Below are positions 47,424-64,000 of a stretch of 64,000 bases of DNA, one piece after another. Within the stretch, counting starts at the first letter, position 1. Each line of letters opens with the position of its first letter. The position numbers and the translations under genes were made by a program. This DNA is from a virus: positions 1 through 64,000 of IMG/VR virus record IMGVR_UViG_3300047322_000608. The stretch is one strand, 5' to 3'. Under the pieces are notes generated by a model. The model made no database searches. It was not told the origin of the DNA and worked only from the letters and a program-made list of their open reading frames with translations.

Positions 47424-47424
47424 A

Positions 47425-48871: not shown

Positions 48872-48881
48872 ACCCCACCCT

Positions 48882-49923: not shown

Positions 49924-49930
49924 ACATTCC

Positions 49931-51028
49931 ATGTCACTCACCCTCACCGTTAGCAGCCTGAACGGACACGACTTGTCCGCGACCCGCGGCAACCCCTTCC
50001 ATCCGTTTAAGACGATCGCAGCAGCCCTGGCTCAGACCCGGGACGGAGATCGACTCGAGATCCGAGACGGGCCTTACGCCGAACAGGGATTGGTCCTGCG
50101 TTACGTTAACGGCGTAACCATTGCCGGCATTGGGCAACCCGTCATCACCGCATCAACCCGCGGGCATATTCTGCGTATCAACAGTTGCAACGACCTTTCC
50201 GTTACCGGCCTGAAGTTCAACGGCACGGGCCCGATCACCGAACCGAACGAGCTTTACTTCGCGCTCGTCGAGTTGCAGAGCGTCAACGATCGGCTCTCCT
50301 TTTCCGATTGCCAGTTCACCAACTCCGGCAATCACGGCCTGGCGCATCTCGCTGGCCCCAGGACCAGCAGCAACGTGACGGTCGATCGCTGCTCCTTCGA
50401 ACGTGGCGGCAATTACGGCCGAACCCAAAACCTGATCTGGGATGGCGCCGCTATCGCAGTCGGAGGCATCGGCATCCGCATAAGACGGACACGGATCAAG
50501 GACTGGCCCCGCGGCATAGAATTCGAGAATCCCTACGGAGATTGCACCTTTTACGTGGACAACTGCGACGTCTCCGAGTGCGCGCATGCCGGCCTCTTTA
50601 TCACTCCAACCGGACCGCAGAACAACATCTCCCGGCAACACTTTACCGGGAAGATCCTTAACTCAAGGTTCACGAACGGTAAGAAAGTCCCGGGCGGCTT
50701 CCTGGCCTCTGGCATGGTGATCTCTGGCGGCCAAGACGTGCTCCTCTCCGGCAATACCGTTTCGGATTTCCCTGACGGCTGCGGCATCGAATGCTCCGCC
50801 AAGTGGGGCCCGCTCTCCCGCTTTATCATTTCCAATAATCACGTCACCAACATCGGCCGCTCCGGCATCTTGTTCCGGCACGGCCCAGACGGAACGAAGT
50901 CTCTCGCAGACGGCCTGGTCTGCGCCAACAACATCCTCGCCAACATCTCCGGAGCACCCATAGACTTCCTGGCCTACAACATCCAGGAGTCCTGCAACCT
51001 GCTCCCTCCGCTCCAGGTCGAGTCATGA
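49931..51028 (+). CDS. right-handed parallel beta-helix protein (pectin lyase-like)
   Basis: PFKTIAAAL...DGD.LEIRDG.Y.E cap followed by repeated I..N...N...GI coils. Confidence 0.85.
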   Translation: MSLTLTVSSLNGHDLSATRGNPFHPFKTIAAALAQTRDGDRLEIRDGPYAEQGLVLRYVNGVTIAGIGQPVITASTRGHILRINSCNDLSVTGLKFNGTGPITEPNELYFALVELQSVNDRLSFSDCQFTNSGNHGLAHLAGPRTSSNVTVDRCSFERGGNYGRTQNLIWDGAAIAVGGIGIRIRRTRIKDWPRGIEFENPYGDCTFYVDNCDVSECAHAGLFITPTGPQNNISRQHFTGKILNSRFTNGKKVPGGFLASGMVISGGQDVLLSGNTVSDFPDGCGIECSAKWGPLSRFIISNNHVTNIGRSGILFRHGPDGTKSLADGLVCANNILANISGAPIDFLAYNIQESCNLLPPLQVES

Positions 51029-51288
51029 AAACCAAACGCCGCTACGACGGCCGCCATGCCATTGACGGCCTATCCAAACAACGGCGCTACCAACTCCGCA
51101 AATGCGCTAGAGGCCTCTGCCCAAAGTGCGGAGCAAAACGAACTCGCTTCGCGTTGTGCGACGACTGCCATAGCAAGGACATTGAACGCAACCGCCTCCG
51201 ACACGGCCACCAACCCTGGCGCAAAGGCCACCGCGGCAGACCACCCAAGCAGCAACTTTCCGCTCCGCGCTCTGGCCCGTCGTTGTGA
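51025..51288 (+). CDS. basic zinc-finger protein
   Basis: GLCPKCG......LCDDC; C-terminal GRPP. Confidence 0.65.
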   Translation: MKTKRRYDGRHAIDGLSKQRRYQLRKCARGLCPKCGAKRTRFALCDDCHSKDIERNRLRHGHQPWRKGHRGRPPKQQLSAPRSGPSL

Positions 51289-51356
51289 CGGTGTCCTGAG
51301 CACTCACTAGTGCAGAGGTTGCGGAGCGTGAACATCCCCCTGGCGCCATTGTTGGT

Positions 51357-51938
51357 TCATTGGCCCGGGGGGAGAACTTCCCCAGCCGCCGCGTCCAAGA
51401 GCCGCTTCATATCCGCTTCCGCAGCCTTAGCCTCCAGCTCCGCCGACTTCATTCGTTCCAAACGATCCGCTTCCTTCTCATCCCCATCCTCAATCGCCTT
51501 CTCCGCCAGACGCTCGTTCAACGATGGGCCGCCAGAACCGCCTCGCTTCGCTTTCCTGGCCTCCCTCTTCTGCCTAAACTTCTCCTGGGCTAAACGGTTC
51601 TGCTCCCTTCGGTCCTCCTCGTTCTGGATCGACTTGTAGTAAGCATAATTGACAACGCGATACGCAAACGGACCAATCTTTACAATCCTTCGACCCTCAT
51701 CACCAGGGGTCGTCGTCTTAGGATCCGGCCGACACAGATATTCGATCGCTCTCTCAATAACATCCGCCGTCGTCCCGAACGTTGCCGCGATCAAAACCGG
51801 ATTCATTTCAATGTAACCCCCGTGAACTTTGTCCGGCATCGCCTCCGATATGATGTAGGGCATGAGCGCGTAAACCTCAATTCCAGCACCGACCATCGAA
51901 CCACGGTAAAGCTTCGAAAAAATCTTGCCGTAAGTCAT
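51357..51938 (-). CDS. phage replication initiator-like protein
   Basis: YGKIF..LY.GSM.G...EMNP....IE.L..PDP......GRRI.......VVNY..Y.....EDRREQNR.AQ pattern of phage rep N-termini. Confidence 0.6.
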   Translation of the reverse strand: MTYGKIFSKLYRGSMVGAGIEVYALMPYIISEAMPDKVHGGYIEMNPVLIAATFGTTADVIERAIEYLCRPDPKTTTPGDEGRRIVKIGPFAYRVVNYAYYKSIQNEEDRREQNRLAQEKFRQKREARKAKRGGSGGPSLNERLAEKAIEDGDEKEADRLERMKSAELEAKAAEADMKRLLDAAAGEVLPPGQ

Positions 51939-51967
51939 TCCTTCTTGTCTCACGCCAAAAACACTAC

Positions 51968-52062
51968 ATCAACACAAATCTTACACGTAAGCAAAGGTAA
52001 GCCGAATCAGCATAGGAGTAATCAAAATAAGCACAGTTAGAGTAAGAGTTAGAAGAGAGAGT
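51968..52062. repeat. iteron-like heptamer array, candidate replication origin
   Basis: GTAAGCA 51987, GTAAGCC 51997, ATCAGCA 52006, GTAATCA 52018, ATAAGCA 52027 (spacing 9-12 bp), then an AG-rich tract; directly upstream of rep-like gene. Confidence 0.45.
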
Positions 52063-52816
52063 TCGTCGTCAACCTCAAACATGGCGTCATCCATTGAAAA
52101 CAGGCTGCACTACACTCACGGGTAACCGCAAACACAAGACGAATCACCATCCCAGATTTAGCCCCGGATTCCATGAAAGTTGAGAAGGGAGACCCATCAC
52201 AGCCAGCAGGACCACCCCGCCCTTCCCCGGGACACCCCCACCCAATCGGCTGCCAGGTCGATTCCAGGACTGAGCCACATTAAGCCGATAATGTCACCCG
52301 ATGCTGCTGCTGCTGGCCTTTGCGACTATCGGCGCACAGTAGGCAACGTGGCGGTTGGCTTCCGATGGCAGGTTACAGACTGCCCACAGAGAGCCCGATA
52401 GCCCTACGTCAAACCCCGATGGAATCATCAGGAATGGGAGTTGGGTGAATACACCCAAGTCAGTAGGCAAGGTATAGTCTCTCCTAACATTCTTAGGCTG
52501 ACCTAACATTTGGGCTTCCTGGATCTCGGCTTTGAGTAACCTTTTGCCCCCTTTCCTTGTAACCTTGGCTTGGGAGTAGTGTAGCCGGTCGCTCGTTTGA
52601 GCGTTTACCTGACTCGTTTGAGTCAAGCGGCGGTCCTTCCGGTGTCTCGGGTTGAACTGAGCGCAGGTGTGGGCGGCAGGGGTCGAAAGGCCTGCCATGG
52701 GATTACCACGGGGTTTGCCGTAGTTTCCGAGCGTATCGCGATAACCCGTCAAGGCGAAGCAAGGTCGAAACGGTCTTAGATACTCCAATTCCTAACGGGA
52801 TACAGTGGGAACTCAC

Positions 52817-52893
52817 AAGCTTAACGTAGCCCAGTTACTCGTTTGAGTAGCTGGTCGGTGACAAGCCCGGGGAAACAATACGGAGTCAAGCTT
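52817..52893 (+). ncRNA. twister self-cleaving ribozyme (type P1)
   Basis: P1 AAGCU/AGCUU, UAA, P2 CGUA/UACG, GC, 10-bp P3 hairpin, P4 UCGG/CCGG, L4 UGAC-AA-GC, GA-GUC(A) T1 partner; predicted cut U52822/A52823. Confidence 0.9.
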
Positions 52894-52921
52894 AACGATA
52901 GGAACAAGATACGAGGAATAT

Positions 52922-53350
52922 ATGTCAGCAACCAGTTTGATCAGTTTCGACGCAAGCGCCAACGCGGTAACGTCTTACAACGAGAAGATGAAAACCACTA
53001 CCTTGCGCTTGCTTACGGCGAAGGAGTTCAAGACGGCGCGTGGGCTCAAGGGGAACGCCGCTTCGGTGGCTTACAATGCCTACATTCGGGAGCATGGTCT
53101 GGCGAACACGGCGGGTTTGGCGGCGGCGCTCACGTCGGGTGAGTTGTTGGTTCGTTCGGCGAGGGACAGCTCGAAGTCCCTGAACGTGTCGTTTGTCAAG
53201 AAGTCTGCCATCAAGGACCCGGCCGTGAAGTCTGCCCCTGCCCCCGAAGTCACGGCTCTGGAGACTGAAGTTGCCAACCTGAAGGCTATGCTGGCTGGGC
53301 TTGGCGCGAAAGCGGAAGAGATTGCGGCGGCGCGCCCGAGCGCGGTGTAG
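52922..53350 (+). CDS. first early gene, hypothetical basic protein
   Basis: GAGG RBS and TATG start; 142 aa. Confidence 0.75.
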   Translation: MSATSLISFDASANAVTSYNEKMKTTTLRLLTAKEFKTARGLKGNAASVAYNAYIREHGLANTAGLAAALTSGELLVRSARDSSKSLNVSFVKKSAIKDPAVKSAPAPEVTALETEVANLKAMLAGLGAKAEEIAAARPSAV

Positions 53351-53459
53351 TCGGTCCGTGGCGGGTAAGTCTGGCGGCAGATTGGCAGGGTTGGAGCGTG
53401 TCTCCTGCCCTGCCGCTTCTGTTTCTAGAGTCCGTTTAACCTGGAACAAGTACGAACGT

Positions 53460-54356
53460 ATGCAAGACATGACTGCGCTGGCGGAGCAAATCCGGCAGCG
53501 TATTCTCGCGTCTCAGCCTGCCGCGGAAGTGCCTCGGAAGGCTGGGGATGCGGGAGTTGCTGCCCCTTTGGGAAGCCAGAGGCAGCATTACAAGTTCCCG
53601 TTGTTGCTGGCGGCCGTGGCAAGTGGCGTGGACGCCATTGCCCTGGTTGGTCCGGCTGGAACGGGAAAGACGACAGCGGCGCATTCGTGCGCCAAGCTGC
53701 TGGGCAGGCGCTTTGAGCCTACCAGCTTCGGTCCGACCACGTCCAAGGCTGACTTGTTCGGCTTTGTGGACGCGAACGGGGTCTATCGTGACTCCGCTTT
53801 AGTGCGAGCTGCCAGGGATGGTGGCGTGTTCCTGGGGGACGAGCTTGATGCTGGTCATCCTGGGGTTGTTACGGGCCTGAACATGGTTCTGGCCAACGGC
53901 GTGTTCGGCATTCCGACCGGGGTGCTCGAGAAGCACGCGGAGTTCGTTCCCATCTTCGGGATGAACACGTACGGGACCGGGGCGAACCGGCAATACGTGG
54001 GCAGGAACCAACTGGACGCTGCGAGCCTGGACCGGATGGCTGTGATCGAATGGGATTTGGACTGCGGGTTAGAAGCGGCCATGGTCGGGGTGAACGGGGT
54101 GCAATCGCCTGCGTTCGATCTGGGCAAGCACGGGACCATGACAGCGCCGCAGTGGTTGGCGCGGGTTTGGTCCGTCCGGAAAGCGATTGAATTGCTGGGG
54201 GTCCGGCACATCGTTAGCCCGCGGTGCTCGCAGAACGGCATCAAGCTGTTCCGGGCTGGCGTGGGCAAGGCGCACGTCCAGGAAATGGTGCTCTGGAAAG
54301 GGATGGACGCGGAGACCCGGGAACGGGTTGAAGCCAAGGTAAAGGAGATCCTGTGA
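53460..54356 (+). CDS. MoxR/CbbQ/CobS-like AAA+ ATPase
   Basis: GPAGTGKT, GGVFLGDELDAG, NTYG.G....YVGRNQLD.A.LDR. Confidence 0.9.
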   Translation: MQDMTALAEQIRQRILASQPAAEVPRKAGDAGVAAPLGSQRQHYKFPLLLAAVASGVDAIALVGPAGTGKTTAAHSCAKLLGRRFEPTSFGPTTSKADLFGFVDANGVYRDSALVRAARDGGVFLGDELDAGHPGVVTGLNMVLANGVFGIPTGVLEKHAEFVPIFGMNTYGTGANRQYVGRNQLDAASLDRMAVIEWDLDCGLEAAMVGVNGVQSPAFDLGKHGTMTAPQWLARVWSVRKAIELLGVRHIVSPRCSQNGIKLFRAGVGKAHVQEMVLWKGMDAETRERVEAKVKEIL

Positions 54357-55171
54357 GCGCCAAGACCGGGGTAACGGTTGAGCGCCGGGCCTTTACGGGA
54401 TGGCATCAATTCGTGGAACAGGTCCGCAAGCCGATGTCCTGGGACGTGGCCGGCCAGAGCACGGCGGAGCGTTCGTATAGCTGGGCTTTAGGGGCTTCCT
54501 ACGACGATGCGCTCAAGCTGGCGACTACGGGCTGGGCGGAGGGGTTCAAGGCTGTCTCCCTCAAAGCGCAGGCGATCTGCAAGGCGCACGGCGGGCTGGA
54601 CTTGAGCCCGCGCTTTGCGGAATCTGGCGACGAAGTGGACGTCGGGCTATTCCTGGCGGATGAGCCGGAGTGCATGGTCGAGTATCCGATGGAGCCCAAG
54701 CAGCGTCCGGTCGTCAAGATTGTGGTCTCCGCTTCGTTCTCGGGCGGGATTGCCGCGGAAGAGATTTACAACCGCGGTGCGGCGATTCTGGCGGCGATAG
54801 ATCTCCTGGAAGGGGCTGGGGTCCGGGTCGAGGTTGACCTGGACATGGGAACGGAGACCGGGCGCCGGCAGTTCATCCGCACGATACCGCTCAAAGCGGC
54901 CAACGACGCGCTGGACCGGGACAAGCTGGCCTTTGCGATCTGCCATCCGGCGACGTTGCGGAGGCTGATCTTCCGACTGCACGAGCAGGACGGGGTGGAT
55001 GCGTTCGAGCGGATGGGCGGGTGCCAATACGGCCATCCGATCAATCCGGCGCCGCAGGACGGGGCGATCGTGATCAACGCGCTCACCATGAGCAACGAGG
55101 GCGAGTTCCGGACGATGGAGCAAGCGCAGGCGTTCGCGGAGCGGGTCCTGGCGGAAGTAAGCGGCGATTGA
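54353..55171 (+). CDS. vWA-like partner of the MoxR ATPase
   Basis: VDVG.FL..EPECM, VKIVVS.S.S.G, RG.AI...ID.LE..G.RVE; translationally coupled to ATPase. Confidence 0.7.
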   Translation: MSAKTGVTVERRAFTGWHQFVEQVRKPMSWDVAGQSTAERSYSWALGASYDDALKLATTGWAEGFKAVSLKAQAICKAHGGLDLSPRFAESGDEVDVGLFLADEPECMVEYPMEPKQRPVVKIVVSASFSGGIAAEEIYNRGAAILAAIDLLEGAGVRVEVDLDMGTETGRRQFIRTIPLKAANDALDRDKLAFAICHPATLRRLIFRLHEQDGVDAFERMGGCQYGHPINPAPQDGAIVINALTMSNEGEFRTMEQAQAFAERVLAEVSGD

Positions 55172-55238
55172 GCGCGGGCGTCCTTCGGGACGCTCCAGCT
55201 CAGTTTCCAGTAAACCGCAACAGAACAAAGGAACAGTT

Positions 55239-55487
55239 ATGGAAAGAACACCTAAAGGTCAGTGTCTGCAGATGAAACGCGCGGCGATGGCTGCGCTCAG
55301 CGTTGGTGACGTGGCGTGCGCTCTGGATTACATGGAGTGCGCCAAAGACGTTGAGATGGCGATGGTGAAGGAGCAGAGCGAGAGCATCAAGCGAGCAAAG
55401 CGCAGGCTGGCGGATGGCGTCCTGGCTCATAACGTGGGCAGTGCGAGCATCGCGCTTAACGGCGATGGGGCATACGCACGTTCCTAG
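55239..55487 (+). CDS. hypothetical early protein
   Basis: AAAGGAACA RBS. Confidence 0.65.
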   Translation: MERTPKGQCLQMKRAAMAALSVGDVACALDYMECAKDVEMAMVKEQSESIKRAKRRLADGVLAHNVGSASIALNGDGAYARS

Positions 55488-55700
55488 CCAATCCTAGAGG
55501 CTTTCGGGAGAGAACCGAGACAAGGCACACACCAGGAGGAAATATGCGCGGGGTAAACAAAGCCCGCTAACGAAGCAACCACAGGAGCGTGGGCTGCTGG
55601 GATAAACCTGAGAGGTTCCCGGCAGCCCCCTTTCTGTTTAGCCCATTTAGGCTGCTGGCAACGTGCTGGCGGGAATGGGTTAAGGAGAAAGGAACAAGGT

Positions 55701-55907
55701 ATGAGCAAATTCACTTACTGCTATTGCCCTGGCTGTGGTCGCAACAATGTGCACGTGGACGTGGATAGGGGTGTTCTGCACGATCACCGGAACCGGGGTT
55801 ACACGGCCAAGTGCACCGGGAGCGGCCGGCCTGCGACGGAGCGCAGGGCTTACCCGTTGCCTTCGGGTGCCTTTGGGCGGCTGGTTGGCGCCATTGCTGG
55901 AGAATGA
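55701..55907 (+). CDS. small Zn-binding protein
   Basis: CPGC...H......C.GSG; AAAGGAACA RBS. Confidence 0.7.
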   Translation: MSKFTYCYCPGCGRNNVHVDVDRGVLHDHRNRGYTAKCTGSGRPATERRAYPLPSGAFGRLVGAIAGE

Positions 55908-55910
55908 CCT

Positions 55911-56189
55911 ATGCCCAACGATACCCAAGAACAGGTCCAGGACGTTCCGGATTGGATTAGGGCAGGCGATCTTCCGAATCTGGATCTTTTCGTTACGCCA
56001 GACGATCTGGACTCCATGCAGGCCGACATACGCAAGGTAGAGCAGGGGCTGGCCTTGATGCGGCAGTATGCGGAGGCAAAGGCCAACGCGATGCGCTGCA
56101 GGCTTAACGGCGCCATTCCGTTGGCGGTCAGGTTCGAGGCGGCCTGCGATCACGTTTACATGCAGATGCCCGAGTGGGCTCGGTGGTAA
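55911..56189 (+). CDS. hypothetical early protein
   Basis: YA..KA.AM..R..G.I..A...E..CD..Y..MP.WARW. Confidence 0.7.
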   Translation: MPNDTQEQVQDVPDWIRAGDLPNLDLFVTPDDLDSMQADIRKVEQGLALMRQYAEAKANAMRCRLNGAIPLAVRFEAACDHVYMQMPEWARW

Positions 56190-56359
56190 GGCGGTAGAGC
56201 AACGGAGCAATTTTGCGCGTGCATGGTGGGGTCTCAAAACCTCATGCCTCTGGACTCCAAACCCGGAGGACAACATGCACAGCGCCATTGCTTCGCTTTC
56301 TGCCTCCCAATTGGGAAGGTGGTAATCGGAATCGGTAGAACAAAGGAACAAGTACGAGT

Positions 56360-56647
56360 ATGGCAAAATCATTAGGGTATGCGGGCGCAGTGCGCTCGGC
56401 CTATGAGCAGGTATTCACGTTAGCGAGCATCTTCAACTGCACGCTCAACGGCAAAGACGCGGCCTTGGACGTGAGTCCCAGATCCGGGCTGGCGATCGTG
56501 AAGGCGAAAGACGGCTCGGATTCGAGCTGCTTCAATTGGTCCGTGGTAACGCGGGTCATGAAGGAGCACGGCGGCCGGTTCGTCACCCGCGACAACCAGG
56601 CGCCGGTCAAGCGATGGGCCGCTAACCCCTTGCTGGCACTGGTATGA
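56360..56647 (+). CDS. hypothetical early protein
   Basis: AAAGGAACA RBS. Confidence 0.7.
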   Translation: MAKSLGYAGAVRSAYEQVFTLASIFNCTLNGKDAALDVSPRSGLAIVKAKDGSDSSCFNWSVVTRVMKEHGGRFVTRDNQAPVKRWAANPLLALV

Positions 56648-56853
56648 ACCCTCCCTTGATTCTCGAGGTCCAGCATGTTCGGTTCGGGCTCGGTCTGCGA
56701 ACGCAACGCTGGAGCAAAACGCGCCACGTCATCTTGAACGTGGGCACAGTGGAAGCTCGAGTGATCGTGCCGAACGAGCGCACGGGTGGCGGTTTGTTCG
56801 TCCTGGGCCTGCTCTTGTCTGGCGTGGTCGCTGGGCTGAAAGGGACGCCATGA
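56644..56853 (+). CDS. small protein with C-terminal hydrophobic segment
   Basis: ATGA-coupled at both ends. Confidence 0.55.
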   Translation: MNPPLILEVQHVRFGLGLRTQRWSKTRHVILNVGTVEARVIVPNERTGGGLFVLGLLLSGVVAGLKGTP

Positions 56854-57206
56854 GCCACATCAAAACCTTGCGCTCCAAGAAGCGTAAATCCAAGCCGATG
56901 CTTCCGGTCATGGACAACCTGCGAATGCCTTCCGACCCGGAAGCGCAGAACGACTCCCGATCCGATTGGGCGGAAGTAGCCATTCGGGCGTTCATGCAAG
57001 CCACTGGCTCGGACGCTGGGGATGCTGTCTCCGATCTCTTGGCTGACTTAGCGCACTACTGCGACCGGCACGGGTTGGAGCTGGGGCATGAGTTGTGCCG
57101 AGCGTGTAGCCATTACGAGGAAGAGACGACCAACGAAGAAGTGGGTGAGAGCGAAGGCAGGCAGTTCACCCGCGTTCACATCTCACCCAGAGAGGACCAG
57201 CTATGA
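56850..57206 (+). CDS. hypothetical early protein
   Basis: N..R..WA..A...F......D..SDLL.DL.H.CD......A..HY.EE. Confidence 0.7.
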   Translation: MSHIKTLRSKKRKSKPMLPVMDNLRMPSDPEAQNDSRSDWAEVAIRAFMQATGSDAGDAVSDLLADLAHYCDRHGLELGHELCRACSHYEEETTNEEVGESEGRQFTRVHISPREDQL

Positions 57207-57292
57207 ACATTCGCTTCGGTGAATTCGTTTACCTGGCAGCGTTCGCGGTCGTGATGGCCATTGCGCTGCACATGCTGAAAGGAATGGTATGA
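57203..57292 (+). CDS. 29-aa single-TM peptide
   Basis: MNIRFGEFVYLAAFAVVMAIALHMLKGMV; GAGG RBS, ATGA overlaps at both ends; below ORF-track cutoff. Confidence 0.5.
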   Translation: MNIRFGEFVYLAAFAVVMAIALHMLKGMV

Positions 57293-57501
57293 ACATCCTG
57301 CCTTTGAAAGTCGTTGACCGGCCGGACGGTACGATTGAGATCCAGCGTGACGACGGAGTTCCGATTGCCGTCATGTGCCACAGCGCAGCGGCAGCGCAGA
57401 ACGCCCATGAGATCGTGAAGCGGGTGAACCAGTACGGAGACCTGGTTGCTCTGGTAATGGCTGCCAAAACGTTCGTCGCACTCATGGAAAAGATCCCATG
57501 A
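57289..57501 (+). CDS. hypothetical early protein
   Basis: coupled ORF; A.NA..IV..VN.Y.DL. Confidence 0.65.
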   Translation: MNILPLKVVDRPDGTIEIQRDDGVPIAVMCHSAAAAQNAHEIVKRVNQYGDLVALVMAAKTFVALMEKIP

Positions 57502-57576
57502 TCCTGGATCTCCTGCTCATAGAGCCCTGGCTACAGGCGCTGGTAATGGCGCTTGCGGCCCGGGCCTATCTTTGTT

Positions 57577-58041
57577 ATGCGAACAATCACTTGCTACAAA
57601 CTGTTTCAAACCAAGCGGACGGCGCCGGGCCGGATCTTCCCGCTCTTCATCGGCAAGGATAAGCCGACTCCGATCGGCGAATGGGTTCCGGCGCAATTCC
57701 TGCCGACCGATGGCTTTGCGCCGCGGCCGGGCTGGCACGTCGGGCCTTTGCCCAAGGCTCAGCATCTGATGTGCAAGGACGGGACCATGCCAGCCAGCCG
57801 GGTGTGGGCCCAGGTCGAGATCCTGGCGGACGTGGATTACACGCCATTGGCTGCCATTGCACCGACCAAGGATCTGCGCGGCCAAGTGCCGCACGGTGGA
57901 TACTATCGCTTCCCCAGGCCGATCAACCAGGGCGGGGAGTGGATCATTGCCGGGCAGATTCGGGTGCTGCGGCTGTTGTCGGAAGAGGAAGTTCAGCAGA
58001 TACTCAACAACGCGCATGATACCCAGGCTGCTCTCGTATGA
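57577..58041 (+). CDS. hypothetical phage protein
   Basis: YKLF...PLFI...GEW...GFA.RPGWH...RVW..VE...DY. Confidence 0.7.
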   Translation: MRTITCYKLFQTKRTAPGRIFPLFIGKDKPTPIGEWVPAQFLPTDGFAPRPGWHVGPLPKAQHLMCKDGTMPASRVWAQVEILADVDYTPLAAIAPTKDLRGQVPHGGYYRFPRPINQGGEWIIAGQIRVLRLLSEEEVQQILNNAHDTQAALV

Positions 58042-58798
58042 TTGGATTGTCCTAAACAGTTCGGCGGGAAAAGACTCGCAGGCAATGCTCGATTACGTGG
58101 TTGAGCAGGCCGATGCGGTTGGGTTCCCGCGCTCCAAGATCGTGGTAGCGCACGCCGACCTGGCTAAGGAAGAATGGCAAGGGACCAAGGAACTGGCCCG
58201 GAAACAAGCGGAGCACTACGGGTTGCGATTTGTCGTCATGAAACGGCGCCGCGCGGATGGGTCGGACGATTCGATCCTGGCTTATGCGCGGCGGCGCGGT
58301 AAATGGCCGAGCAGCGGCAATCGCTGGTGTACGTCCGATTTCAAGCGCGGCCCGATCGGCCGGCTTTTCACCAGCTTGGGCGAAGGACTGATCCTGAACT
58401 GCCTGGGAATGCGAGCGCAAGAATCGCCGAGCCGGGCCAAGTTGCCTGAGTTCGAGGAAAACAAACGCTACACAACAGCAAGCCGGTGCGTGGACAACTG
58501 GCTGCCGATCCATTCCTGGACACTCGAACAGGTCTGGGCGCGGATCAAAGCGTCGGGCGTACCGCATCATTATGCCTACGACCTTGGAATGCCCCGGCTG
58601 TCGTGCTGCTTCTGCATCTTCTCGCCGAAGCCTGCGCTGCTCCTGGCTGGGAAGCACAACCCGGAACTATTGGCCGAGTACGTTGCGACCGAGACAGCAA
58701 TCAATCATTCCTTCCGCAACGGCTTCAAGATCGCCGAGATTAAAGCGGCCCTGGACGCAGGCGAGCAACCAGGCAGGGTCCAAGACTGGGTCATGTAA
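58016..58798 (+). CDS. PAPS reductase-family (PP-loop) protein
   Basis: SSAGKDS, RWCT..FK, GMRA.ES..R, PI..W, H.AY..G..RLSC.FC. Confidence 0.9.
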   Translation: MIPRLLSYDWIVLNSSAGKDSQAMLDYVVEQADAVGFPRSKIVVAHADLAKEEWQGTKELARKQAEHYGLRFVVMKRRRADGSDDSILAYARRRGKWPSSGNRWCTSDFKRGPIGRLFTSLGEGLILNCLGMRAQESPSRAKLPEFEENKRYTTASRCVDNWLPIHSWTLEQVWARIKASGVPHHYAYDLGMPRLSCCFCIFSPKPALLLAGKHNPELLAEYVATETAINHSFRNGFKIAEIKAALDAGEQPGRVQDWVM

Positions 58799-58876
58799 GC
58801 AACACCGCACCGTGCTGCGGGGAAAGCACGGATCTTTTGCAGGCTTCCGACGTGTTCGGTGGCCTGGAAAGGAACA

Positions 58877-59563
58877 GTGACGAAAACAAAGAACAAGAAA
58901 CTCAAGTTTAGCGTGGAAGACCTGCGCAAGCTGAACCCCTGCCACGAAGCGCTGGCGTGGGTTGATAAGCAGCATGGCGAGTCTCCATCGGATCTGTGGC
59001 AGATGTGCCCTCGATCGGATTGGATGCTATGGCTGCTTGCACGGGTTCGACCGTTGTCCAAGCCGGAAGCGGTGACATTGGCGTGCCGGTTCGCGCTCAA
59101 AGTCCTGACGGTATTCGAGACCCGCTATCCATACGATAAGCGCCCGCGGCAGGCGATTGAGGCAGCTCAGGCGTGTCTGAAAGACCCGTCTGCTTCTGCT
59201 GCTTATGCTGCTGCTTCTGCTGCTTCTGCTGCTTATGCTGCTGCTGCTGATGCTGCTGCTGCTGATGCTTCTGCTGCTGCTGCTGCTTATGCTGCTGCTG
59301 ATGCTGCTGCTGATGCTTCTGCTTATGCTTCTGCTTATGCTGCTTATGCTGCTGATGCTGCTGCTGATGCTGCTGATGCTGCTGCTTATGCTTATGCTGC
59401 TGATGCTGCTGATGCTTCTGCTGCTTATGCTGCTGATGCTGCTGCTGCTGCTTATGCTGCTGATGCTGCTGCTGATGCTGCTGATGCTGCTGCTGATGCT
59501 GCTGCTGCTCGCAAGAAGCAGGCCGACATTATTCGCGAGATCATCGGCAACCCATTCAAGTGA
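58877..59563 (+). CDS. Imm5-like protein with Ala/Asp/Tyr/Ser repeat
   Basis: GTG start after AAAGGAACA; DWM.WL, AC.FA..VL..FE..YP.DKRPR.AI.AA, ..QADI.R; 107-aa low-complexity insert. Confidence 0.7.
   Translation: MTKTKNKKLKFSVEDLRKLNPCHEALAWVDKQHGESPSDLWQMCPRSDWMLWLLARVRPLSKPEAVTLACRFALKVLTVFETRYPYDKRPRQAIEAAQACLKDPSASAAYAAASAASAAYAAAADAAAADASAAAAAYAAADAAADASAYASAYAAYAADAAADAADAAAYAYAADAADASAAYAADAAAAAYAADAAADAADAAADAAAARKKQADIIREIIGNPFK
59189..59509 (+). repeat. 321-bp trinucleotide-based coding repeat (GCT/GAT/TAT/TCT only)
   Basis: 107 consecutive codons all of form KMT. Confidence 0.95.
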
Positions 59564-59781
59564 AGCTCTCAATTATCCTCTCGGTCTCGGCGATCATCCT
59601 GCGGTTCATCACGCCTGGGCCTGGGTCGTGGTACATCATGCGCCGGGATACGCCCTACCACGACATTGTTGAGACGGCCGGATACGAGACCAACGCCTGC
59701 GAGATCGAGCTAGAGATTCCCAACAGCAACCAGGCGGCAATCTACAAACTCCGGTTTTACCCCGGATCGACGAATCCGTGA
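59560..59781 (+). CDS. small protein with hydrophobic N-terminus
   Basis: GTGA-coupled to upstream gene. Confidence 0.55.
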   Translation: MKLSIILSVSAIILRFITPGPGSWYIMRRDTPYHDIVETAGYETNACEIELEIPNSNQAAIYKLRFYPGSTNP

Positions 59782-59850
59782 ACCCTCAAATCGAACACGC
59801 CAGCGTCTACTTCCCACGCAACTGGACGATGGTGCAAAAACTCGCGTGGA

Positions 59851-60042
59851 TTAAGGAAAGGAACGACCCGCCTTCGCCTTGCGCTTCCGATACGCCTTCC
59901 AGCGCCATTTAGCGCCGATGCGGCCTATTCGGGACATCTCCGCTCGGTCCCGGCTGCGGGCCTTACCGCCTGCGCTCTGGATCGCGCGGCACCTTGCTTT
60001 GGGAATGACGGCGAATCCTTGGGGAAGTTTGGCTTCTTTCAT
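59851..60042 (-). CDS. small basic protein
   Basis: AGGKAR...MS.IGR.GA..RW KGG-like pattern; lone antisense gene in early region. Confidence 0.55.
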   Translation of the reverse strand: MKEAKLPQGFAVIPKARCRAIQSAGGKARSRDRAEMSRIGRIGAKWRWKAYRKRKAKAGRSFP

Positions 60043-60133
60043 TTACGGCTAGAAATACTGCTGTTACTCGGGGAATTTAGTAAAGGCTTTTCGGGTAGCA
60101 GCAATTCGTATTAGCTGCTTGAATACCTGATAT

Positions 60134-60322
60134 ATGAGTCAGGCTACCATTCACGAGAGCAAGGCGACCTTCCAGGCCGAGGAAAGCTTTCAGCTCCAGC
60201 AGCTTCGGATGGAGAACCAGTGGCTGAGGCTACGGATCGAGAAGCTCAAGCTGCACGCGCTGTCTGACAATAAGCCCCCGCTGGTGTTGGAGCGAGAGCG
60301 GGTGCCGGCGCATAAGAATTGA
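60134..60322 (+). CDS. small coiled-coil protein
   Basis: TATG start; L..LR.EN..LR. Confidence 0.5.
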   Translation: MSQATIHESKATFQAEESFQLQQLRMENQWLRLRIEKLKLHALSDNKPPLVLERERVPAHKN

Positions 60323-60782
60323 AGTTTCGCTTGACGGCGGCGGTAGTGAGTGTGAATGTCCGAATGTCCGTAACGCTTTAAGGTGCGATGCGGCTCGAAT
60401 GACCCCGCTTGGGAGATTAGGCAAGGCCTGAGCACACCTGCCAAGGTGACTTTAAGGGGTCGCCCCTTTGAGAGTAGAGCCCTGATTCGCAATCCGTGCG
60501 GATCGGGGTTGTTGCTTTCCACCCTGCGGCATCAAAAGGATAGAGCAACCGGTCCGCGGAGTAACCAAGTAGTCTTGGGGGCGGGGACCGAAGACAAACA
60601 AGCCGTCTAGGGTTTGCTCCTCCAGGAACTTCCTTTGGCGGCAACGGCCAAGGGGAGGAGGGAGGGGTTTCTGAGGTTTTACGCCTCTTTTCTTTCCCCG
60701 CAGAACCTTTCTTAACTGGAACTGTTCTTCTGTTCGAGGCACCACGTTTAATCCGGAGTGCCCCGAAGAAAGGAACAGAACT

Positions 60783-61205
60783 ATGCGAATCAAGTTAGAA
60801 ACGATAGATCCGTGGGCCTTTGTTAAGCGGGCCTATAAGCTGGCTTACGATGCCTGCGGAGGGACAAGCGGCTACGGCATCTTCCAGGCTCGGGATCGGG
60901 TGACGGAGGACGACGTGTTCAAAAACGTGTCCTGTGCGGGGGATTACCCTGGAGGAAACCGTCAAGCCGAGGAGAGAGCCAAGGACGGCGAGTTCTATGG
61001 GGACTACGTGTTCGGTCGGATGGTGAAGCTCGGGATGAGAATTAAGGATGGGGTAGTTGAGATTCGGGATTACCGCTGGAGACCGGACTACAACGCATTC
61101 GTGGGGAAGTATCCGGACGGCGAAGCGTTGACCAAAGCCACGTTGCTATCGCTTGGAGAGCGGGAGGACTCCTACGGTATGGTCGAGGAGAAGGAGACCG
61201 CATGA
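60783..61205 (+). CDS. hypothetical early protein
   Basis: AAAGGAACA RBS; DYVFGRM.KL motif. Confidence 0.75.
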   Translation: MRIKLETIDPWAFVKRAYKLAYDACGGTSGYGIFQARDRVTEDDVFKNVSCAGDYPGGNRQAEERAKDGEFYGDYVFGRMVKLGMRIKDGVVEIRDYRWRPDYNAFVGKYPDGEALTKATLLSLGEREDSYGMVEEKETA

Positions 61206-61528
61206 TTATCGAGAAATCTGCAGAGACGCGGCTGGAGGCTGAGAAGGCGCTCCGGTGTCTGTTTATCGCGGTAGACGAGCAAGTTGCTCGGGACGTGCGA
61301 TCCAAGGTTATTACGGCGTTTGAGGACCAGGACGCGAGGAGCCAGTTGCTCATGGACACGATCAACCGGCAGGTGAAGGAGAACCGGATCCTGGTGGCCG
61401 CGCTCAAGGAGTGCTTCACGGACGAGAACGCCAGCGGCATGGTGCTTCCGAAATACGCCAAGCTCCGGATGCGGGCGATCAACGTGATTGTGGCGGGAGC
61501 GTTGCAGAAAGTGGGGGCGGCGGAATGA
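61202..61528 (+). CDS. hypothetical early protein
   Basis: AAGGAG RBS, ATGA overlap. Confidence 0.7.
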   Translation: MIIEKSAETRLEAEKALRCLFIAVDEQVARDVRSKVITAFEDQDARSQLLMDTINRQVKENRILVAALKECFTDENASGMVLPKYAKLRMRAINVIVAGALQKVGAAE

Positions 61529-61887
61529 ACAAGACATTGGGAAGAGTAAAGAAAACGGCCCGTGGATTCGAGATTATTGAATTTACGGATCATTACGGTC
61601 ATGCCTGCAGCGTGCAGCAATCAAGCCTTGCTATCTGGCAGACTCCGGGAACGAGCGCGCTCTGGATGGGGACGAACGACGCGAATCCGCTCGTGATGCA
61701 CCGGGATGCTGCGAGTGTCGGAGTTCAAACAGATAAAACCGAAGGTTGGGTGCCGTATCCGATCCCCGAAGAGGTTCAGTTGAACACTCGGATGCACCTT
61801 CACCGCAAGCAAGTGGCGGCGCTAATTCAGCATCTGCAATCGTGGCTGGACACCGGCAGCTTGAAGCTGCAGAAAGCCAAGGAATGA
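61525..61887 (+). CDS. hypothetical phage protein
   Basis: T.RGF..IEF.D.YG..CS.Q.SSLA...W.G...TRMHL...QV..L...LQ.W..TG.L. Confidence 0.75.
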   Translation: MNKTLGRVKKTARGFEIIEFTDHYGHACSVQQSSLAIWQTPGTSALWMGTNDANPLVMHRDAASVGVQTDKTEGWVPYPIPEEVQLNTRMHLHRKQVAALIQHLQSWLDTGSLKLQKAKE

Positions 61888-62186
61888 ACAACTTTGCCAG
61901 GTTAGTGGAATCGAGCCCGTTTTATGGGTTATTTGAGGGCGGGAAGGTGCCGGTCGTCGGGATCTTTCCAGCCCTTGCAGAGTGCGAAGGGGACGGTGTG
62001 CAAGAGGTTTACATGGTGGACATCGATCGGCTAAGCGCGGTGCAGATTAGCGCGATCCTGGACGTGCTGGGGGGCGGGGATAAAGAGCTACGGCTGGAGG
62101 CGGCCCGGGACATCAAAGAGCGGGGTTTGCCGCTCCGGGCCAAGAATGTGGTGTCGATCATTTCGGATGTGCCCTGGTTTTTATGA
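61884..62186 (+). CDS. hypothetical early protein
   Basis: start MNNFARL, ATGA overlap. Confidence 0.65.
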   Translation: MNNFARLVESSPFYGLFEGGKVPVVGIFPALAECEGDGVQEVYMVDIDRLSAVQISAILDVLGGGDKELRLEAARDIKERGLPLRAKNVVSIISDVPWFL

Positions 62187-62428
62187 AAACGACGTGCGCA
62201 TGGTGCGCTCAGGAACAGGCTAGCCCTCTTCTGCCTTGGGATAGCCACGGGATCTGCGAACGGCACAAAGCTGTAGTTTTGAAGGAGCTGGCCGAGCTTC
62301 ACGGAACAATCGAGCAGGAACAGCCTGATTTGGGGCACAAGCAGCCCTGTTTTGGGTTTAGAACGGTTTTGGCTATCTCGATAGGGTGTTTGCTAGGATG
62401 GGCAATTGAGAGGCTTTGTGGACGGTAG
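62183..62428 (+). CDS. small Zn-binding membrane protein
   Basis: CAWC...SHGIC..H; C-terminal hydrophobic helix. Confidence 0.65.
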   Translation: MKTTCAWCAQEQASPLLPWDSHGICERHKAVVLKELAELHGTIEQEQPDLGHKQPCFGFRTVLAISIGCLLGWAIERLCGR

Positions 62429-62464
62429 GACTCAAAAACAACGAAATAAACGAAAGGAACAGGT

Positions 62465-62707
62465 ATGGCTAGAAAGTATGATGCGGATAGGGCCAGGGCG
62501 GTCGAGGTTGAGCGCCTGGCGGAGAAGGACCCCGTGTTTGCTGTGAACTTCCGGGCGCTCACAGCTAACCATAAGTACAGACAGCTCAGGCCGACCGTGA
62601 CGAGCTGGCTCATGCGGCAGGCTCAGGCGAGGGAACGCAGGCAGATGCAGCATCAGTTCACTCCGACCAGGGTCACGGCCCAGGTGGAAAGGGAGTTGTT
62701 CGGATGA
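62465..62707 (+). CDS. hypothetical early protein
   Basis: AAAGGAACA RBS. Confidence 0.65.
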   Translation: MARKYDADRARAVEVERLAEKDPVFAVNFRALTANHKYRQLRPTVTSWLMRQAQARERRQMQHQFTPTRVTAQVERELFG

Positions 62708-62917
62708 GTAGCGTGGGGCTCTGCCCGCGTTGCGGCAAGGTGATCTCATTCAGATTCCCGGTTCACGACTGCCGCAAGCCCAAGAAAGCTAAAATGGAAA
62801 AACCGGCTAAGGGGCAAACCTTTCGCCGGTAAGGAACAGGTACGGGAGTATGAGGGCCCGCATCCGTGTGGCCTCTACTCTCGGACCGAAACGAAAATCA
62901 GTCAAGAAAGGAACATT

Positions 62918-63382
62918 ATGGGATTGGACATGTATCTGAAAGCCACTCGGTACATCGGCAACTGGGATCACACTTCGGAGTCCGAAAGAGCCAGGTATCG
63001 CGGAGTCACAGAGGCGATTGGATTCTCCGGGTTCAGTTGCCCTGGTTCGCCGCACTTGGTTGTGGATCTGTCGGTCGCTTATTGGCGGAAAGCCAACCAG
63101 ATCCATGCCTGGTTCGTGGAGCACGTCCAGGATGGGGAAGACGAGTGCCGGGAGCACTCGGTCAGCAAGGAGCAATTGCAGACGCTCTGCGATTTGTGCC
63201 AGCAAGTCCTGGACACAAAGAATGCCTCACTTCTGCCGCCTCGGCCCGGGTTCTTCTTCGGCAGCACGGACATCGACGATTATTACTGGCAGGATCTCAA
63301 GTATACCATCGACCAGCTCAAACCGTTGCTGGAAGATCCGCGGTTCCAAGGCTGGGATTTCACCTACCAGTCAAGCTGGTAG
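62918..63382 (+). CDS. hypothetical phage protein
   Basis: MGLDMYL...YWRKANQIH.WF...LP...GFFFGS..YQSSW; AAAGGAACA RBS. Confidence 0.8.
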   Translation: MGLDMYLKATRYIGNWDHTSESERARYRGVTEAIGFSGFSCPGSPHLVVDLSVAYWRKANQIHAWFVEHVQDGEDECREHSVSKEQLQTLCDLCQQVLDTKNASLLPPRPGFFFGSTDIDDYYWQDLKYTIDQLKPLLEDPRFQGWDFTYQSSW

Positions 63383-63386
63383 AAAA

Positions 63387-63439
63387 GCGCGAAACGGGCT
63401 TCGGCCCGTCTGCTGGTATGCGCCAGCACCGATGAGCGC
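63387..63439 (+). ncRNA. hammerhead self-cleaving ribozyme, type II, U4C core variant
   Basis: GCGC-GAAAC-GGGC(UUCG)GCCC-GUC-UGCUGG(UAUGCG)CCAGCA-CCGAUGA-GCGC; predicted cut after C63410. Confidence 0.85.
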
Positions 63440-63464
63440 CCGGAATAAACCACAAAGTCTGCGC

Positions 63465-63494
63465 TTGACATGCGTTAACGAAGTAAACTAGCGT
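63465..63494 (+). promoter_or_regulatory. sigma70-type promoter
   Basis: TTGACA-18 nt-TAGCGT just downstream of the hammerhead. Confidence 0.55.
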
Positions 63495-63517
63495 TTAACG
63501 AAAGGCAACAGTACGAT

Positions 63518-64000
63518 ATGAGTGATGGCAAATTGATCGATGGCGTCCTGGTCTGCATGACCAAGTCGTGCGGGATAGCCGGGTCCAAGGTGGACAAGGA
63601 GATGACCGCCGAAGTCGAGGACGATAAGAACGCCGGCCACGGAGCTGGCACCTGGAGCAACAAACTCTTCCCGCCTAAAGCGTGCGGCAAGAAGAACAGC
63701 TTCACCAACCTGCGAACGCACATGAGCCAGATGTACCACTGGCACATGGCCAATTCGTTCGTGTTCGAGAACGAACTGTGGCGGATCCTTCCAACCAAAA
63801 GAGTGGAAGCCTACCGCCAGGTCGTGGAAGTGGCAGGCAAGGCGACAGCACACACGCTATTGAACGAGTTCCTGGACGATTACGAGAACCTGAAGGATCT
63901 GGCGCGCAGGCCGCAACCGGACGGACGCGGCGAGTTGTTCAAGGACGACGATTACCCGTCCAAGGAAACGATTCGAGCCAAGTTCTTCTACGACGTCAGC
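63518..64000 (+). CDS. DUF3150-like early protein (truncated by window end)
   Basis: open frame MSDGKLIDGVLV...K.D...AG...KLF...RILP...F...Y..L....G.LF...DYPS...IR.KF to the end of the window; not in ORF track. Confidence 0.65.
   Translation, partial: MSDGKLIDGVLVCMTKSCGIAGSKVDKEMTAEVEDDKNAGHGAGTWSNKLFPPKACGKKNSFTNLRTHMSQMYHWHMANSFVFENELWRILPTKRVEAYRQVVEVAGKATAHTLLNEFLDDYENLKDLARRPQPDGRGELFKDDDYPSKETIRAKFFYDVS

What the first reader, a model, noticed from the sequence alone, without database searches (positions are those of the whole stretch)
52823..63410. Candidate system: a ~10.6-kb early gene block bracketed by two different self-cleaving ribozymes
Seen: twister at the 5' boundary and hammerhead at the 3' boundary, both sense, with a new sigma70 promoter right after the hammerhead and long hairpins in most intergenic gaps between them. 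Known: both ribozymes leave 5'-OH and 2',3'-cyclic phosphate ends, which RtcB ligases join. Inference: the phage defines its early transcript ends by protein-independent RNA catalysis in place of a terminator or RNase, and a read-through RNA would have ends compatible with circularisation. Internal terminator-like hairpins and a possible promoter near 60331 may instead give shorter units.
Basis: partly seen in the sequence, partly recalled or inferred. Interest (0 to 1): 0.8.

Follow-up and report, generated by a model that had tools for sequence, protein, structure and literature searches.

The report
Twister and hammerhead ribozymes in phage operon
A novel soil phage carries a well-formed twister ribozyme in front of a long gene array and a variant hammerhead ribozyme 10.6 kb downstream; they most likely cut the messenger RNA at two separate places, a pattern already known from phages, and nothing shows that they act as a paired bracket or make an RNA circle.

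Summary
Neither reaches Rfam's gathering score: twister-P1 52819-52891 scores 37.5 bits (cut-off 67.2), Hammerhead_II 63387-63444 scores 28 (cut-off 37).

The twister passes every sequence-level test. All helices form and cleavage falls at U52822|A52823. Its odd loop is compensated in the T1 pseudoknot (GAC:GUC), a pairing that held in 62 of 63 phage twisters I collected.

The hammerhead is a perfect type II scaffold, seen in none of 300 genome shuffles. Its core reads CCGAUGA (U4C) and it lacks the usual loop I/tail pseudoknot, so activity is uncertain. U4C type II hammerheads recur in other phage contigs beside consensus ones.

The system reading is not supported:
- In 88 twister-bearing viral loci, 17 strong hammerheads all lie on the twister's strand, in either order, 0.3-6 kb away. 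This is the known clustering of ribozymes in phage operons.
- The block's ends are not complementary, and the phage has no rtcB.
- The post-hammerhead promoter is weak.
- Only 4 of 11 gaps are unusually structured.
- Three distant relatives lack the ribozymes at those positions.
- No RNA data exist.

Verdict: real ribozymes and a new member of a known kind. The bracket and circularisation remain speculation.

The parts
52817..52893 (+). Type-P1 twister ribozyme with the optional P3 stem. P1 is 52817-22/52888-93. Cleavage is at U52822|A52823. P2 is 52825-28/52879-82. L2 GCC is 52829-31. P3 is 52832-40/52845-53. P4 is 52855-58/52867-70. T1 pairs G60-A61-C62 with G85-U86-C87. T2 pairs G65-C66 with G29-C30.
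   Evidence: cmscan gives 37.5 bits over the full model. The MFE of the isolated 77 nt reproduces P1-P4 without constraint. T1 is compensated, as in 62 of 63 phage twisters. The 9-nt linker lies within natural variation.
63387..63439 (+). Type II hammerhead with a U4C core. Stem II is 63387-90/63436-39. GAAA is 63391-94. Stem III, with a cUUCGg loop, is 63394-63409. C17 is 63410, and cleavage falls after it. Stem I is 63411-63428. The core CCGAUGA is 63429-35, with C at position 4 (63430).
   Evidence: cmscan gives 28 bits over the full model. My descriptor finds it as the only hit in the 75.9-kb genome, and none of 300 shuffles gave stems of at least 6/4/5. The MFE, at ensemble frequency 0.35, is the three-way junction.
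52585..52630 (+). Two hairpins in the leader, 21 nt apart, that share the 10-mer CTCGTTTGAG with the twister's P3 stem-loop. The three copies are at 52592, 52613 and 52838.
   Evidence: These are the only three exact copies in the whole 75.9-kb genome, and all lie on the + strand. The two-hairpin fold has z -2.6. Function is unknown.
52922..53350 (+). First ORF after the twister (142 aa), of unknown function. Its start lies 28 nt after the end of the twister and is preceded by AGGAAC and GAGGAA motifs.
   Evidence: Coding score. There are 12 metagenomic homologs at 49-78% identity. No Pfam or PHROG match.
53301..63382 (+). The gene array between the ribozymes. It holds a CobS/MoxR-like AAA ATPase, a DUF7192 protein, a PAPS-reductase-domain protein and about 15 small ORFs of unknown function.
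   Evidence: PHROG and Pfam scans and coding scores.
63465..63502 (+). Weak promoter-like site TTGACA-N18-TAGCGT, overlapped by a direct repeat GCGTT(T)AACGAA at 63473 and 63491, upstream of the next gene (ATG at 63518).
   Evidence: Read. The site is not reported by the promoter scan. It is one of 3 lenient sites in 27 kb.

Best explanation
The window comes from a complete 75.9-kb, apparently temperate phage of soil and rhizosphere metagenomes, with no close relative in the collections I could reach. Its long rightward gene array (about 52.9-73.8 kb) carries two separate cis-acting self-cleaving ribozymes on the sense strand.

The twister sits at the head of the array, after about 1 kb without genes and 28 nt before the first start codon. 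Inferred: it cuts the leader off at U52822|A52823. The message then begins with a 5'-OH and a compact double-pseudoknot fold. That uncouples the first cistron from whatever lies upstream and should slow decay that depends on a 5' phosphate.

The hammerhead lies 4 nt after a stop codon. Inferred: if active, it cuts after C63410. The upstream RNA then ends in a stable cUUCGg hairpin with a 2',3'-cyclic phosphate, and the downstream RNA begins with a 5'-OH.

Each ribozyme acts locally as a protein-independent processing site in a polycistronic RNA. Their co-occurrence is the usual clustering of ribozyme classes on one strand of phage operons, not a dedicated two-part device. The presence and good form of the motifs are shown. 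Cleavage in vivo, transcript continuity and the effects on stability are inferred.
For: Twister:
- All conserved elements and helices are present.
- The T1 pseudoknot is compensated as GAC:GUC. Across 63 phage twisters the loop triplet and its partner pair in 62: CAC:GUG 38, CCC:GGG 10, GAC:GUC 8, and others.
- Canonical-looking phage twisters in L007 and L017 also score only 43.5-47.7 bits, so the gathering score of 67.2 is strict for such forms.
- Phage twisters typically end a median of 26 nt before a same-strand ORF start. Here the distance is 34 nt.

Hammerhead:
- It is the only descriptor hit in the genome, and none of 300 shuffles gave comparable stems.
- The MFE is the three-way junction.
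- U4C type II hammerheads occur 4 times among 17 strong hammerheads in about 0.96 Mb of fetched viral loci, beside consensus ones. A or G at position 4 gives no strong hit.
- Perreault et al. 2011 (PMC3088659) report that a U4C variant is much slower in vitro yet sufficient in vivo.

Clustering:
- All 17 strong hammerheads in 88 twister loci lie on the twister's strand and none on the opposite strand. They fall in 10 loci, in both orders.
- The literature says bacterial ribozymes lie close to each other and to phage genes, and that processing of polycistronic RNAs has been proposed (PMC6765202).
- In haloviruses HF1 and HF2 a hammerhead sits 13 nt before the first early gene, and the mapped 5' end lies at its cleavage site (PMC3088659).
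Against: No RNA data exist for this phage, so neither cleavage nor transcript structure is shown. The hammerhead has a core change that lowers activity in vitro, and it lacks the loop I/3'-tail pseudoknot that most type II hammerheads have, including the four C4 examples. It may therefore be slow or dead. The promoter of the array was not found. The few distant relatives do not carry the ribozymes at these positions.
Confidence: 0.6

Rival explanations
1. First reader's system. The two ribozymes work as a pair that excises one defined 10,588-nt early RNA (52823-63410) with protected ends, replacing a terminator or RNase. A new promoter then restarts transcription after the hammerhead.
For: Both ribozymes are sense and lie in intergenic positions. 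The hammerhead leaves a cUUCGg hairpin at the 3' end, and the twister leaves a folded 5' end. A TTGACA box with a nearby direct repeat follows the hammerhead. In L003 a distant homolog of the last gene of the block is followed by a canonical TTGACA-N17-TATAAT promoter, so this gene family can end a transcription unit.
Against: Nothing else marks 63410 as a boundary, and the array continues on the same strand for 10 kb. The promoter is weak and not beyond chance. The block contains long structured gaps and a terminator-like 14-bp hairpin at 60478-60510, which may split it. Other phages show both orders and variable numbers of ribozymes. No positional conservation is seen in 3 distant relatives.
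Confidence: 0.15
2. Only the twister is functional. The hammerhead is a decaying or very slow relic (U4C, no tertiary pseudoknot) that now serves at most as a structured spacer or hairpin.
For: The core reads CCGAUGA rather than CUGANGA. No pairing of 4 bp or more links loop I to the 3' tail (read), whereas the four C4 hammerheads found elsewhere all have GGCCU:AGGCC. The score is below the Rfam gathering score. Perreault et al. disqualified core mutants by default (PMC3088659).
Against: All three stems are perfect (7/4/6 pairs) and every other core position is intact, which would not be expected after long neutral decay. Position 4 variants in strong scaffolds are C only, which points to tolerated function. 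Four metagenomic populations carry the same sequence, apart from one low-depth 1-nt loop deletion.
Confidence: 0.25
3. The excised 10.6-kb RNA is circularised by a host RtcB ligase.
For: The end chemistry is right for RtcB (PMC8782182). Engineered ribozyme-flanked mRNAs are circularised by native RtcB in E. coli (PMC12628768). RtcB is common in bacteria: it was found in 10 of 14 control genomes.
Against: The phage has no rtcB. The ends pair no better than 34% of random segment pairs, whereas engineered systems need designed adjoining ends. Both ends would be held inside ribozyme folds. The length is 10.6 kb and internal terminator-like sites are likely. The host is unknown.
Confidence: 0.03
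4. Both motifs are chance look-alikes with no function.
For: Neither reaches the Rfam gathering score.
Against: The twister has E 4e-8 to 4e-5 plus a compensated pseudoknot that the model cannot score. No hammerhead scaffold of this quality appears in 300 shuffles. Both lie in intergenic gaps on the sense strand. No other Rfam-like hit occurs anywhere in the genome.
Confidence: 0.02

Closest known systems
Twister ribozyme, type P1 (Rfam RF03160; structures reviewed in PMC6154101)
   Same: It has P1, P2 and P4 plus the optional P3. It has the U|AA cleavage site, GCC in L2, the AAGCC loop, the double pseudoknot T1/T2, and the conserved GA before the T1 strand.
   Different: T1 reads GAC:GUC rather than CCC:GGG. 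The linker before the 3' strand of P2 is 9 nt. P1 is a palindromic AAGCUU, so U-1 is formally paired. The Rfam score is well below gathering. The P3 loop repeats a hairpin found twice in the leader.
Type II hammerhead ribozyme (Rfam RF02276; Perreault et al. 2011, PMC3088659)
   Same: The order of elements is the same: open stem II, GAAA, stem III hairpin, GUC cleavage triplet, stem I hairpin, core box. The context is also typical: a phage intergenic region in a genome that carries an integrase.
   Different: The core has C at position 4 in place of U. It lacks the loop I/3'-tail pseudoknot typical of the class.
HHphage of haloviruses HF1 and HF2 (PMC3088659)
   Same: A self-cleaving ribozyme lies a few nucleotides upstream of the first gene of a polycistronic early transcript and defines its 5' end.
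   Different: That case is a hammerhead with core insertions in an archaeal virus, and its 5' end was mapped. Here the ribozyme is a twister and no RNA data exist.
Clusters of self-cleaving ribozymes in bacterial and prophage operons (review PMC6765202; D. vulgaris type II hammerheads active in vivo, PMC8782182)
   Same: Different ribozyme classes lie on one strand, near phage genes and between cistrons. The proposed role is processing of polycistronic RNA.
   Different: The spacing of 10.6 kb is larger than the 0.3-6 kb I saw in other loci, though those loci were only 1.3-14.6 kb long.
Engineered ribozyme insulators and the Tornado circular-RNA system (Tornado in E. coli: PMC12628768; RiboJ-type insulators from my own knowledge)
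   Same: A 5' ribozyme removes the upstream context. Flanking ribozymes give ends that RtcB can join.
   Different: Engineered systems place the cleavage sites so that little ribozyme remains, and they add complementary end stems. Here most of the twister and half of the hammerhead stay on the product, and the ends are not complementary.

Membership tests
Twister ribozyme (type P1) | Helices P1, P2 and P4 in the type-P1 order, with cleavage at U|A at the P1/L1 junction | tested here: met
   The cmscan alignment covers the model 1-68. The unconstrained MFE gives P1 (6 bp), P2 (4 bp), P3 (10 bp) and P4 (4 bp).
Twister ribozyme (type P1) | Pseudoknot T1 between loop L4 and the 3' strand of L1 | tested here: met
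   G60-A61-C62 pairs with G85-U86-C87. The same two positions pair in 62 of 63 phage twisters across 7 fully paired triplet types. The definition of T1 is taken from PMC6154101.
Twister ribozyme (type P1) | Pseudoknot T2 between L4 (the GC of AAGCC) and L2 (the GC after P2), plus the conserved AA, GCC, AAGCC and GA nucleotides | tested here: met
   Read. All are present.
Twister ribozyme (type P1) | Score at or above the Rfam gathering score | tested here: not met
   37.5 against 67.2 bits. Other phage twisters with canonical architecture also score 43.5-47.7.
Twister ribozyme (type P1) | Self-cleavage that gives 5'-OH and 2',3'-cyclic phosphate | not testable with these tools
   No RNA run holds the sequence.
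Hammerhead ribozyme (type II) | Consensus core C3 U4 G5 A6 N7 G8 A9, G12 A13 A14, A15.1-U16.1, H17 (criteria of PMC3088659) | tested here: not met
   All positions fit except U4, which is C at 63430. By the authors' filter this is a core variant, to be included only if activity is shown.
Hammerhead ribozyme (type II) | Three stems around the core with no mispair next to it, with stem II open | tested here: met
   Stems I/II/III have 7/4/6 pairs. The MFE is the junction.
Hammerhead ribozyme (type II) | Pseudoknot of 4 bp or more between loop I and the tail after stem II (present in most type II members, not all) | tested here: not met
   No such pairing exists between UAUGCG and CCGGAAUAAACC. 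It is present in the C4 examples of L065, L084 and L089.
Hammerhead ribozyme (type II) | Self-cleavage after H17 | not testable with these tools
   No RNA data.
Ribozyme-flanked circular RNA (Tornado-like or retrozyme-like) | Flanking ribozymes, ends brought together by pairing, and a ligase available | tested here: not met
   Flanking ribozymes are present. End complementarity is no better than random. The phage has no rtcB. The host is unknown.

The most novel reading that the evidence does not exclude
The twister and hammerhead together release one discrete 10.6-kb early RNA. Its ribozyme-made ends protect it, and a host RtcB may join them into a circle. A further possibility is that a factor controls twister cleavage by binding the CUC-GUUU-GAG hairpin, which occurs twice in the leader and once as the twister's own P3 stem-loop.
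Probability: 0.05. Interest if true: 0.8.

Novelty: new member of a known kind. Interest (0 to 1): 0.3.

Why it matters
What self-cleaving ribozymes do in bacteria and phages is still largely open (PMC6765202). This complete phage genome offers a clean test case: one twister sits exactly at the head of a long operon, and one U4C hammerhead sits between cistrons. Two small by-products may help ribozyme annotators. First, the T1 triplet of phage twisters covaries freely (7 fully paired types in 63 sequences), so Rfam's gathering score misses many good twisters. Second, C at hammerhead position 4 recurs in well-formed type II hammerheads of phages. The bracket or circular-RNA idea would be notable if true, but nothing found here speaks for it.

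Tried and rejected
**Searches for relatives**
- megablast of 50000-64000 against INPHARED phages found no match.
- The search for related loci in IMG/VR was run with the first gene, the DUF7192 gene, the gene after the hammerhead, TerL and alignment A1. It found no relatives except L002 and L003, which hold homologs of the last gene.
- Two JGI metagenome scans found nothing.
- The GTDB genome scan gave one distant hit, L022, in a Verrucomicrobiia MAG. It is not syntenic and has no ribozymes.
- 400 further genomes of that phylum gave no hit.
The Logan and JGI contigs that hold the 12 homologs of the first gene could therefore not be read. This was the main obstacle to testing positional conservation.

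**RNA and population data**
- No RNA holder is listed for the sequence.
- Contigs of four soil and rhizosphere DNA runs are near-identical to the window. They gave no informative variation in either ribozyme, apart from one low-depth 1-nt deletion in the hammerhead's loop I.

**Ideas rejected**
- The phage is not visibly N4-like with hairpin promoters for a virion RNA polymerase. The 2912-aa ORF has no PHROG, Pfam or PDB match and no RNAP motifs by simple pattern.
- The isrG match at 59235-59530 (42.9 bits) overlies a long GCT-rich coding repeat, so I treat it as spurious.
- MAFFT could not align twisters with and without P3 or P5, so helices were tabulated by script instead.
- The ESM Atlas gave nothing for the first gene.


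Full report
**What the sequence is**

The window is bases 1-64000 of a 75,869-bp IMG/VR virus record that CheckV rates as complete. Near-identical DNA occurs in many soil and rhizosphere metagenomes. Most of the genes at 1.6-47.5 kb lie on the minus strand. They include a large terminase, a DnaB-type helicase and structural genes, among them a 2912-aa ORF with no PHROG, Pfam or PDB match.

Plus-strand genes run from about 47.4 kb to 73.8 kb. A stretch of about 1.6 kb at 51289-52921 interrupts them. It holds one possible minus-strand ORF and about 1 kb without genes. Past the window's end the plus-strand array carries AAA ATPases, a reverse transcriptase and a tyrosine integrase, so the phage looks temperate.

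No close relative exists in INPHARED or IMG/VR by the searches I could run.

**Checking the observation**

At Rfam gathering thresholds the window has no hit. Windows 1-47200, 47000-64000 and 63001-75869 were all searched.
- twister-P1 at 52819-52891 (+): 37.5 bits against a cut-off of 67.2.
- Hammerhead_II at 63387-63444 (+): 28 bits against a cut-off of 37.

Both lie in intergenic gaps on the coding strand. Their cleavage sites are the finding's coordinates.

**The twister**

The isolated 77 nt (52817-52893) folds, without constraint, into P1 (AAGCUU/AAGCUU), P2 (CGUA/UACG), a 10-bp P3 and P4. The conserved AA after the cleavage site, the GCC of L2, the AAGCC of loop L4 and the GA before the 3' strand of L1 are all present.

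The low score comes mainly from loop L4, which reads UGAC rather than UCCC, and from the L1 strand, which reads GAGUC rather than GAGGG. These are the two strands of pseudoknot T1 (L4 with L1; PMC6154101), which a covariance model cannot score. Here GAC pairs perfectly with GUC.

To test whether this is a natural variant, I scanned IMG/VR with a pattern that leaves those positions free and parsed 63 twisters with a paired P2. The counts were CAC:GUG 38, CCC:GGG 10, GAC:GUC 8 (this one included), CUC:GAG 2, UGC:GCA 2, UCC:GGA 1 and UAC:GUA 1, with one mismatch. So 62 of 63 pair. T1 therefore covaries in nature, and this twister's T1 is intact.
- Other GAC:GUC twisters (L007 twice, L017, L020) have different P1 and P2 sequences that still pair.
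- They too score only 43.5-47.7 bits, so the gathering score is strict for such forms.
- The 9-nt linker before the 3' strand of P2 occurs in four other phage twisters.
- Position is typical: phage twisters end a median of 26 nt before a same-strand ORF start, and this one ends 34 nt before it. That count may be biased by the GGAG required in the scan pattern.

I rate the twister as genuine and probably active, at about 0.85.

**The hammerhead**

The order of elements is type II:
- stem II: GCGC/GCGC
- GAAA
- stem III: a 6-bp helix closed by a cUUCGg loop
- the GUC triplet
- stem I: 7 bp
- the core box
- the other strand of stem II

The MFE of the 63-nt segment is exactly this three-way junction, at ensemble frequency 0.35. 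A descriptor search I wrote for all three permutations finds it as the only hit on either strand of the genome. In 300 shuffles of the genome there were 0.19 weak hits per shuffle and none with stems of at least 6/4/5.

The single deviation is the core box, CCGAUGA rather than CUGANGA (U4C). Perreault et al. 2011 excluded core mutants by default. They also noted that a U4C variant loses much activity in vitro yet supports viroid infectivity in vivo (PMC3088659).

They never carry A or G. The four C4 cases are type II and lie in operons beside consensus hammerheads (L065, L084, and L089 twice). Each has the usual pseudoknot between loop I and the tail. The hammerhead studied here has no such pseudoknot, so it may be slow. 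I put about 0.5 on useful activity.

**The other parts of the observation**
- The promoter after the hammerhead has a perfect -35 but a poor -10 (TAGCGT, spacer 18). It fails the scan. Under a lenient rule it is one of three sites in 27 kb, where about eight are expected by chance. A direct repeat GCGTT(T)AACGAA overlaps it and could be an operator, but that is untested.
- Of 11 intergenic gaps inside the block, four fold much better than shuffles: 55488-55700 (z -5.7), 56190-56359 (z -4.05), 60323-60782 (z -4.2) and 62708-62917 (z -2.6). The others are ordinary, and coding windows average z -1.5.

**Is it a two-part system?**

Several results argue that the pairing is not special.
1. The gene array does not stop at the hammerhead. 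It continues on the same strand for 10 kb.
2. In 88 twister-bearing IMG/VR loci I found 17 strong hammerheads. All are on the twister's strand and none is on the other. They fall in 10 loci, upstream or downstream of the twister, 0.3-6 kb away, and up to three per locus. This is the clustering described in the literature, for which processing of polycistronic RNAs has been proposed (PMC6765202). It shows no rule of 'twister at the 5' end, hammerhead at the 3' end'.
3. The only reachable relatives are distant and not syntenic, and they lack the ribozymes at these positions.
   - L022 holds the first gene's homolog at 54% identity and has no twister upstream.
   - L002 and L003 hold the last gene's homologs at 38-42% identity and have no hammerhead downstream.
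   - In L003 that gene is followed by a canonical TTGACA-N17-TATAAT promoter, a weak hint that this gene family can close a transcription unit.
4. For circularisation the evidence is negative where it could be tested.
   - The phage encodes no RtcB.
   - The two ends pair no better than a third of random segment pairs.
   - Most of the twister and half of the hammerhead would remain folded on the product. Engineered ribozyme/RtcB systems rely on designed adjoining ends (PMC12628768).

**Most likely mechanism**

The two ribozymes are independent processing sites.

The twister removes the long leader, which includes two hairpins described below. It leaves the first cistron with a 5'-OH and a compact folded 5' end. 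This is the same logic as the hammerhead 13 nt before the first early gene of haloviruses HF1 and HF2, whose mapped 5' end coincides with the cleavage site (PMC3088659).

The hammerhead, if active, leaves the upstream RNA ending in a very stable hairpin with a cyclic phosphate, and it separates the downstream cistrons. The effects on stability and translation are inferred from general knowledge of bacterial RNA decay. They are not shown here.

**What could not be done**

The contigs carrying the 12 homologs of the first gene could therefore not be inspected, and that would have been the best test of positional conservation. No RNA run holds the phage. The four DNA runs laid on the region are near-identical to it and add nothing.

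**Verdict**

The motifs are real, and the twister is a good member of its class despite its low Rfam score. The hammerhead is a well-formed U4C variant of uncertain speed. The 'bracket' is best read as an instance of the known co-occurrence of ribozyme classes in phage operons. Circularisation is very unlikely. This is a new member of a known kind, of modest interest.

Noticed in passing
window 52592-52601, 52613-52622, 52838-52847: The 10-mer CTCGTTTGAG (a CUC-GUUU-GAG hairpin top) occurs exactly three times in the 75.9-kb genome, always on the + strand. Two copies are in hairpins 21 nt apart in the leader, and the third is the tip of the twister's P3 stem. This could be a shared protein-binding hairpin. 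Function is unknown.
   Followed up: partly
window 52816-52826 and 52887-52897: An 11-nt direct repeat CAAGCTTAACG flanks the twister. Part of it is the palindromic P1. Among 63 phage twisters, no other has a flanking repeat longer than 6 nt. It could be an insertion or duplication footprint, and it would allow precise loss of the twister by slippage.
   Followed up: partly
L065 9836-9892 (-), L084 8234-8290 (-), L089 6017-6071 (-) and 5295-5355 (-): Well-formed type II hammerheads with C at core position 4 (CCGACGA or CCGAUGA) and an intact loop I/tail pseudoknot lie beside consensus hammerheads and a twister in other IMG/VR contigs. U4C looks like a recurrent natural variant in phages.
   Followed up: partly
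window 55224, 56339, 60765, 62450, 62904 and others: A conserved motif AAAGGAAC(A) lies about 8-17 nt before most start codons of the + strand array. It is probably this phage/host pair's ribosome-binding signal.
   Followed up: no
window 55488-55700, 56190-56359, 60323-60782: Three intergenic stretches fold far better than shuffles (z -5.7, -4.05, -4.2) and match no Rfam family. They may be unknown structured RNAs or processing and stability elements.
   Followed up: partly
window 59124-59569: A long imperfect GCT/GAT-rich repeat with a 9-12 nt period lies inside ORF 58859-59563. It produces a spurious isrG match (42.9 bits) and was skipped as a repeat when reads were laid.
   Followed up: partly
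window 63375-63381 vs 63412-63418; 63438-63442 vs 63404-63408: The end of the upstream ORF repeats 7 nt (GCUGGUA) of the 5' strand of the hammerhead's stem I. The tail after stem II repeats GCCCG of the 3' strand of stem III. Either could form alternative, inactive pairings.
   Followed up: no
window 6956-15694 (-): A 2912-aa ORF in the structural module has no PHROG, Pfam or PDB sequence match and no simple RNA-polymerase motifs.
   Followed up: partly
L004 6847-7833 (genome 69847-70833) and L004 9670-10785 (genome 72670-73785): A reverse transcriptase (RVT_1, 2.6e-21) and a tyrosine integrase lie at the far end of the same + strand array.
   Followed up: no
window 63473-63483 and 63491-63502: A direct repeat GCGTT(T)AACGAA overlaps the weak promoter-like site after the hammerhead. 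It may be an operator.
   Followed up: no
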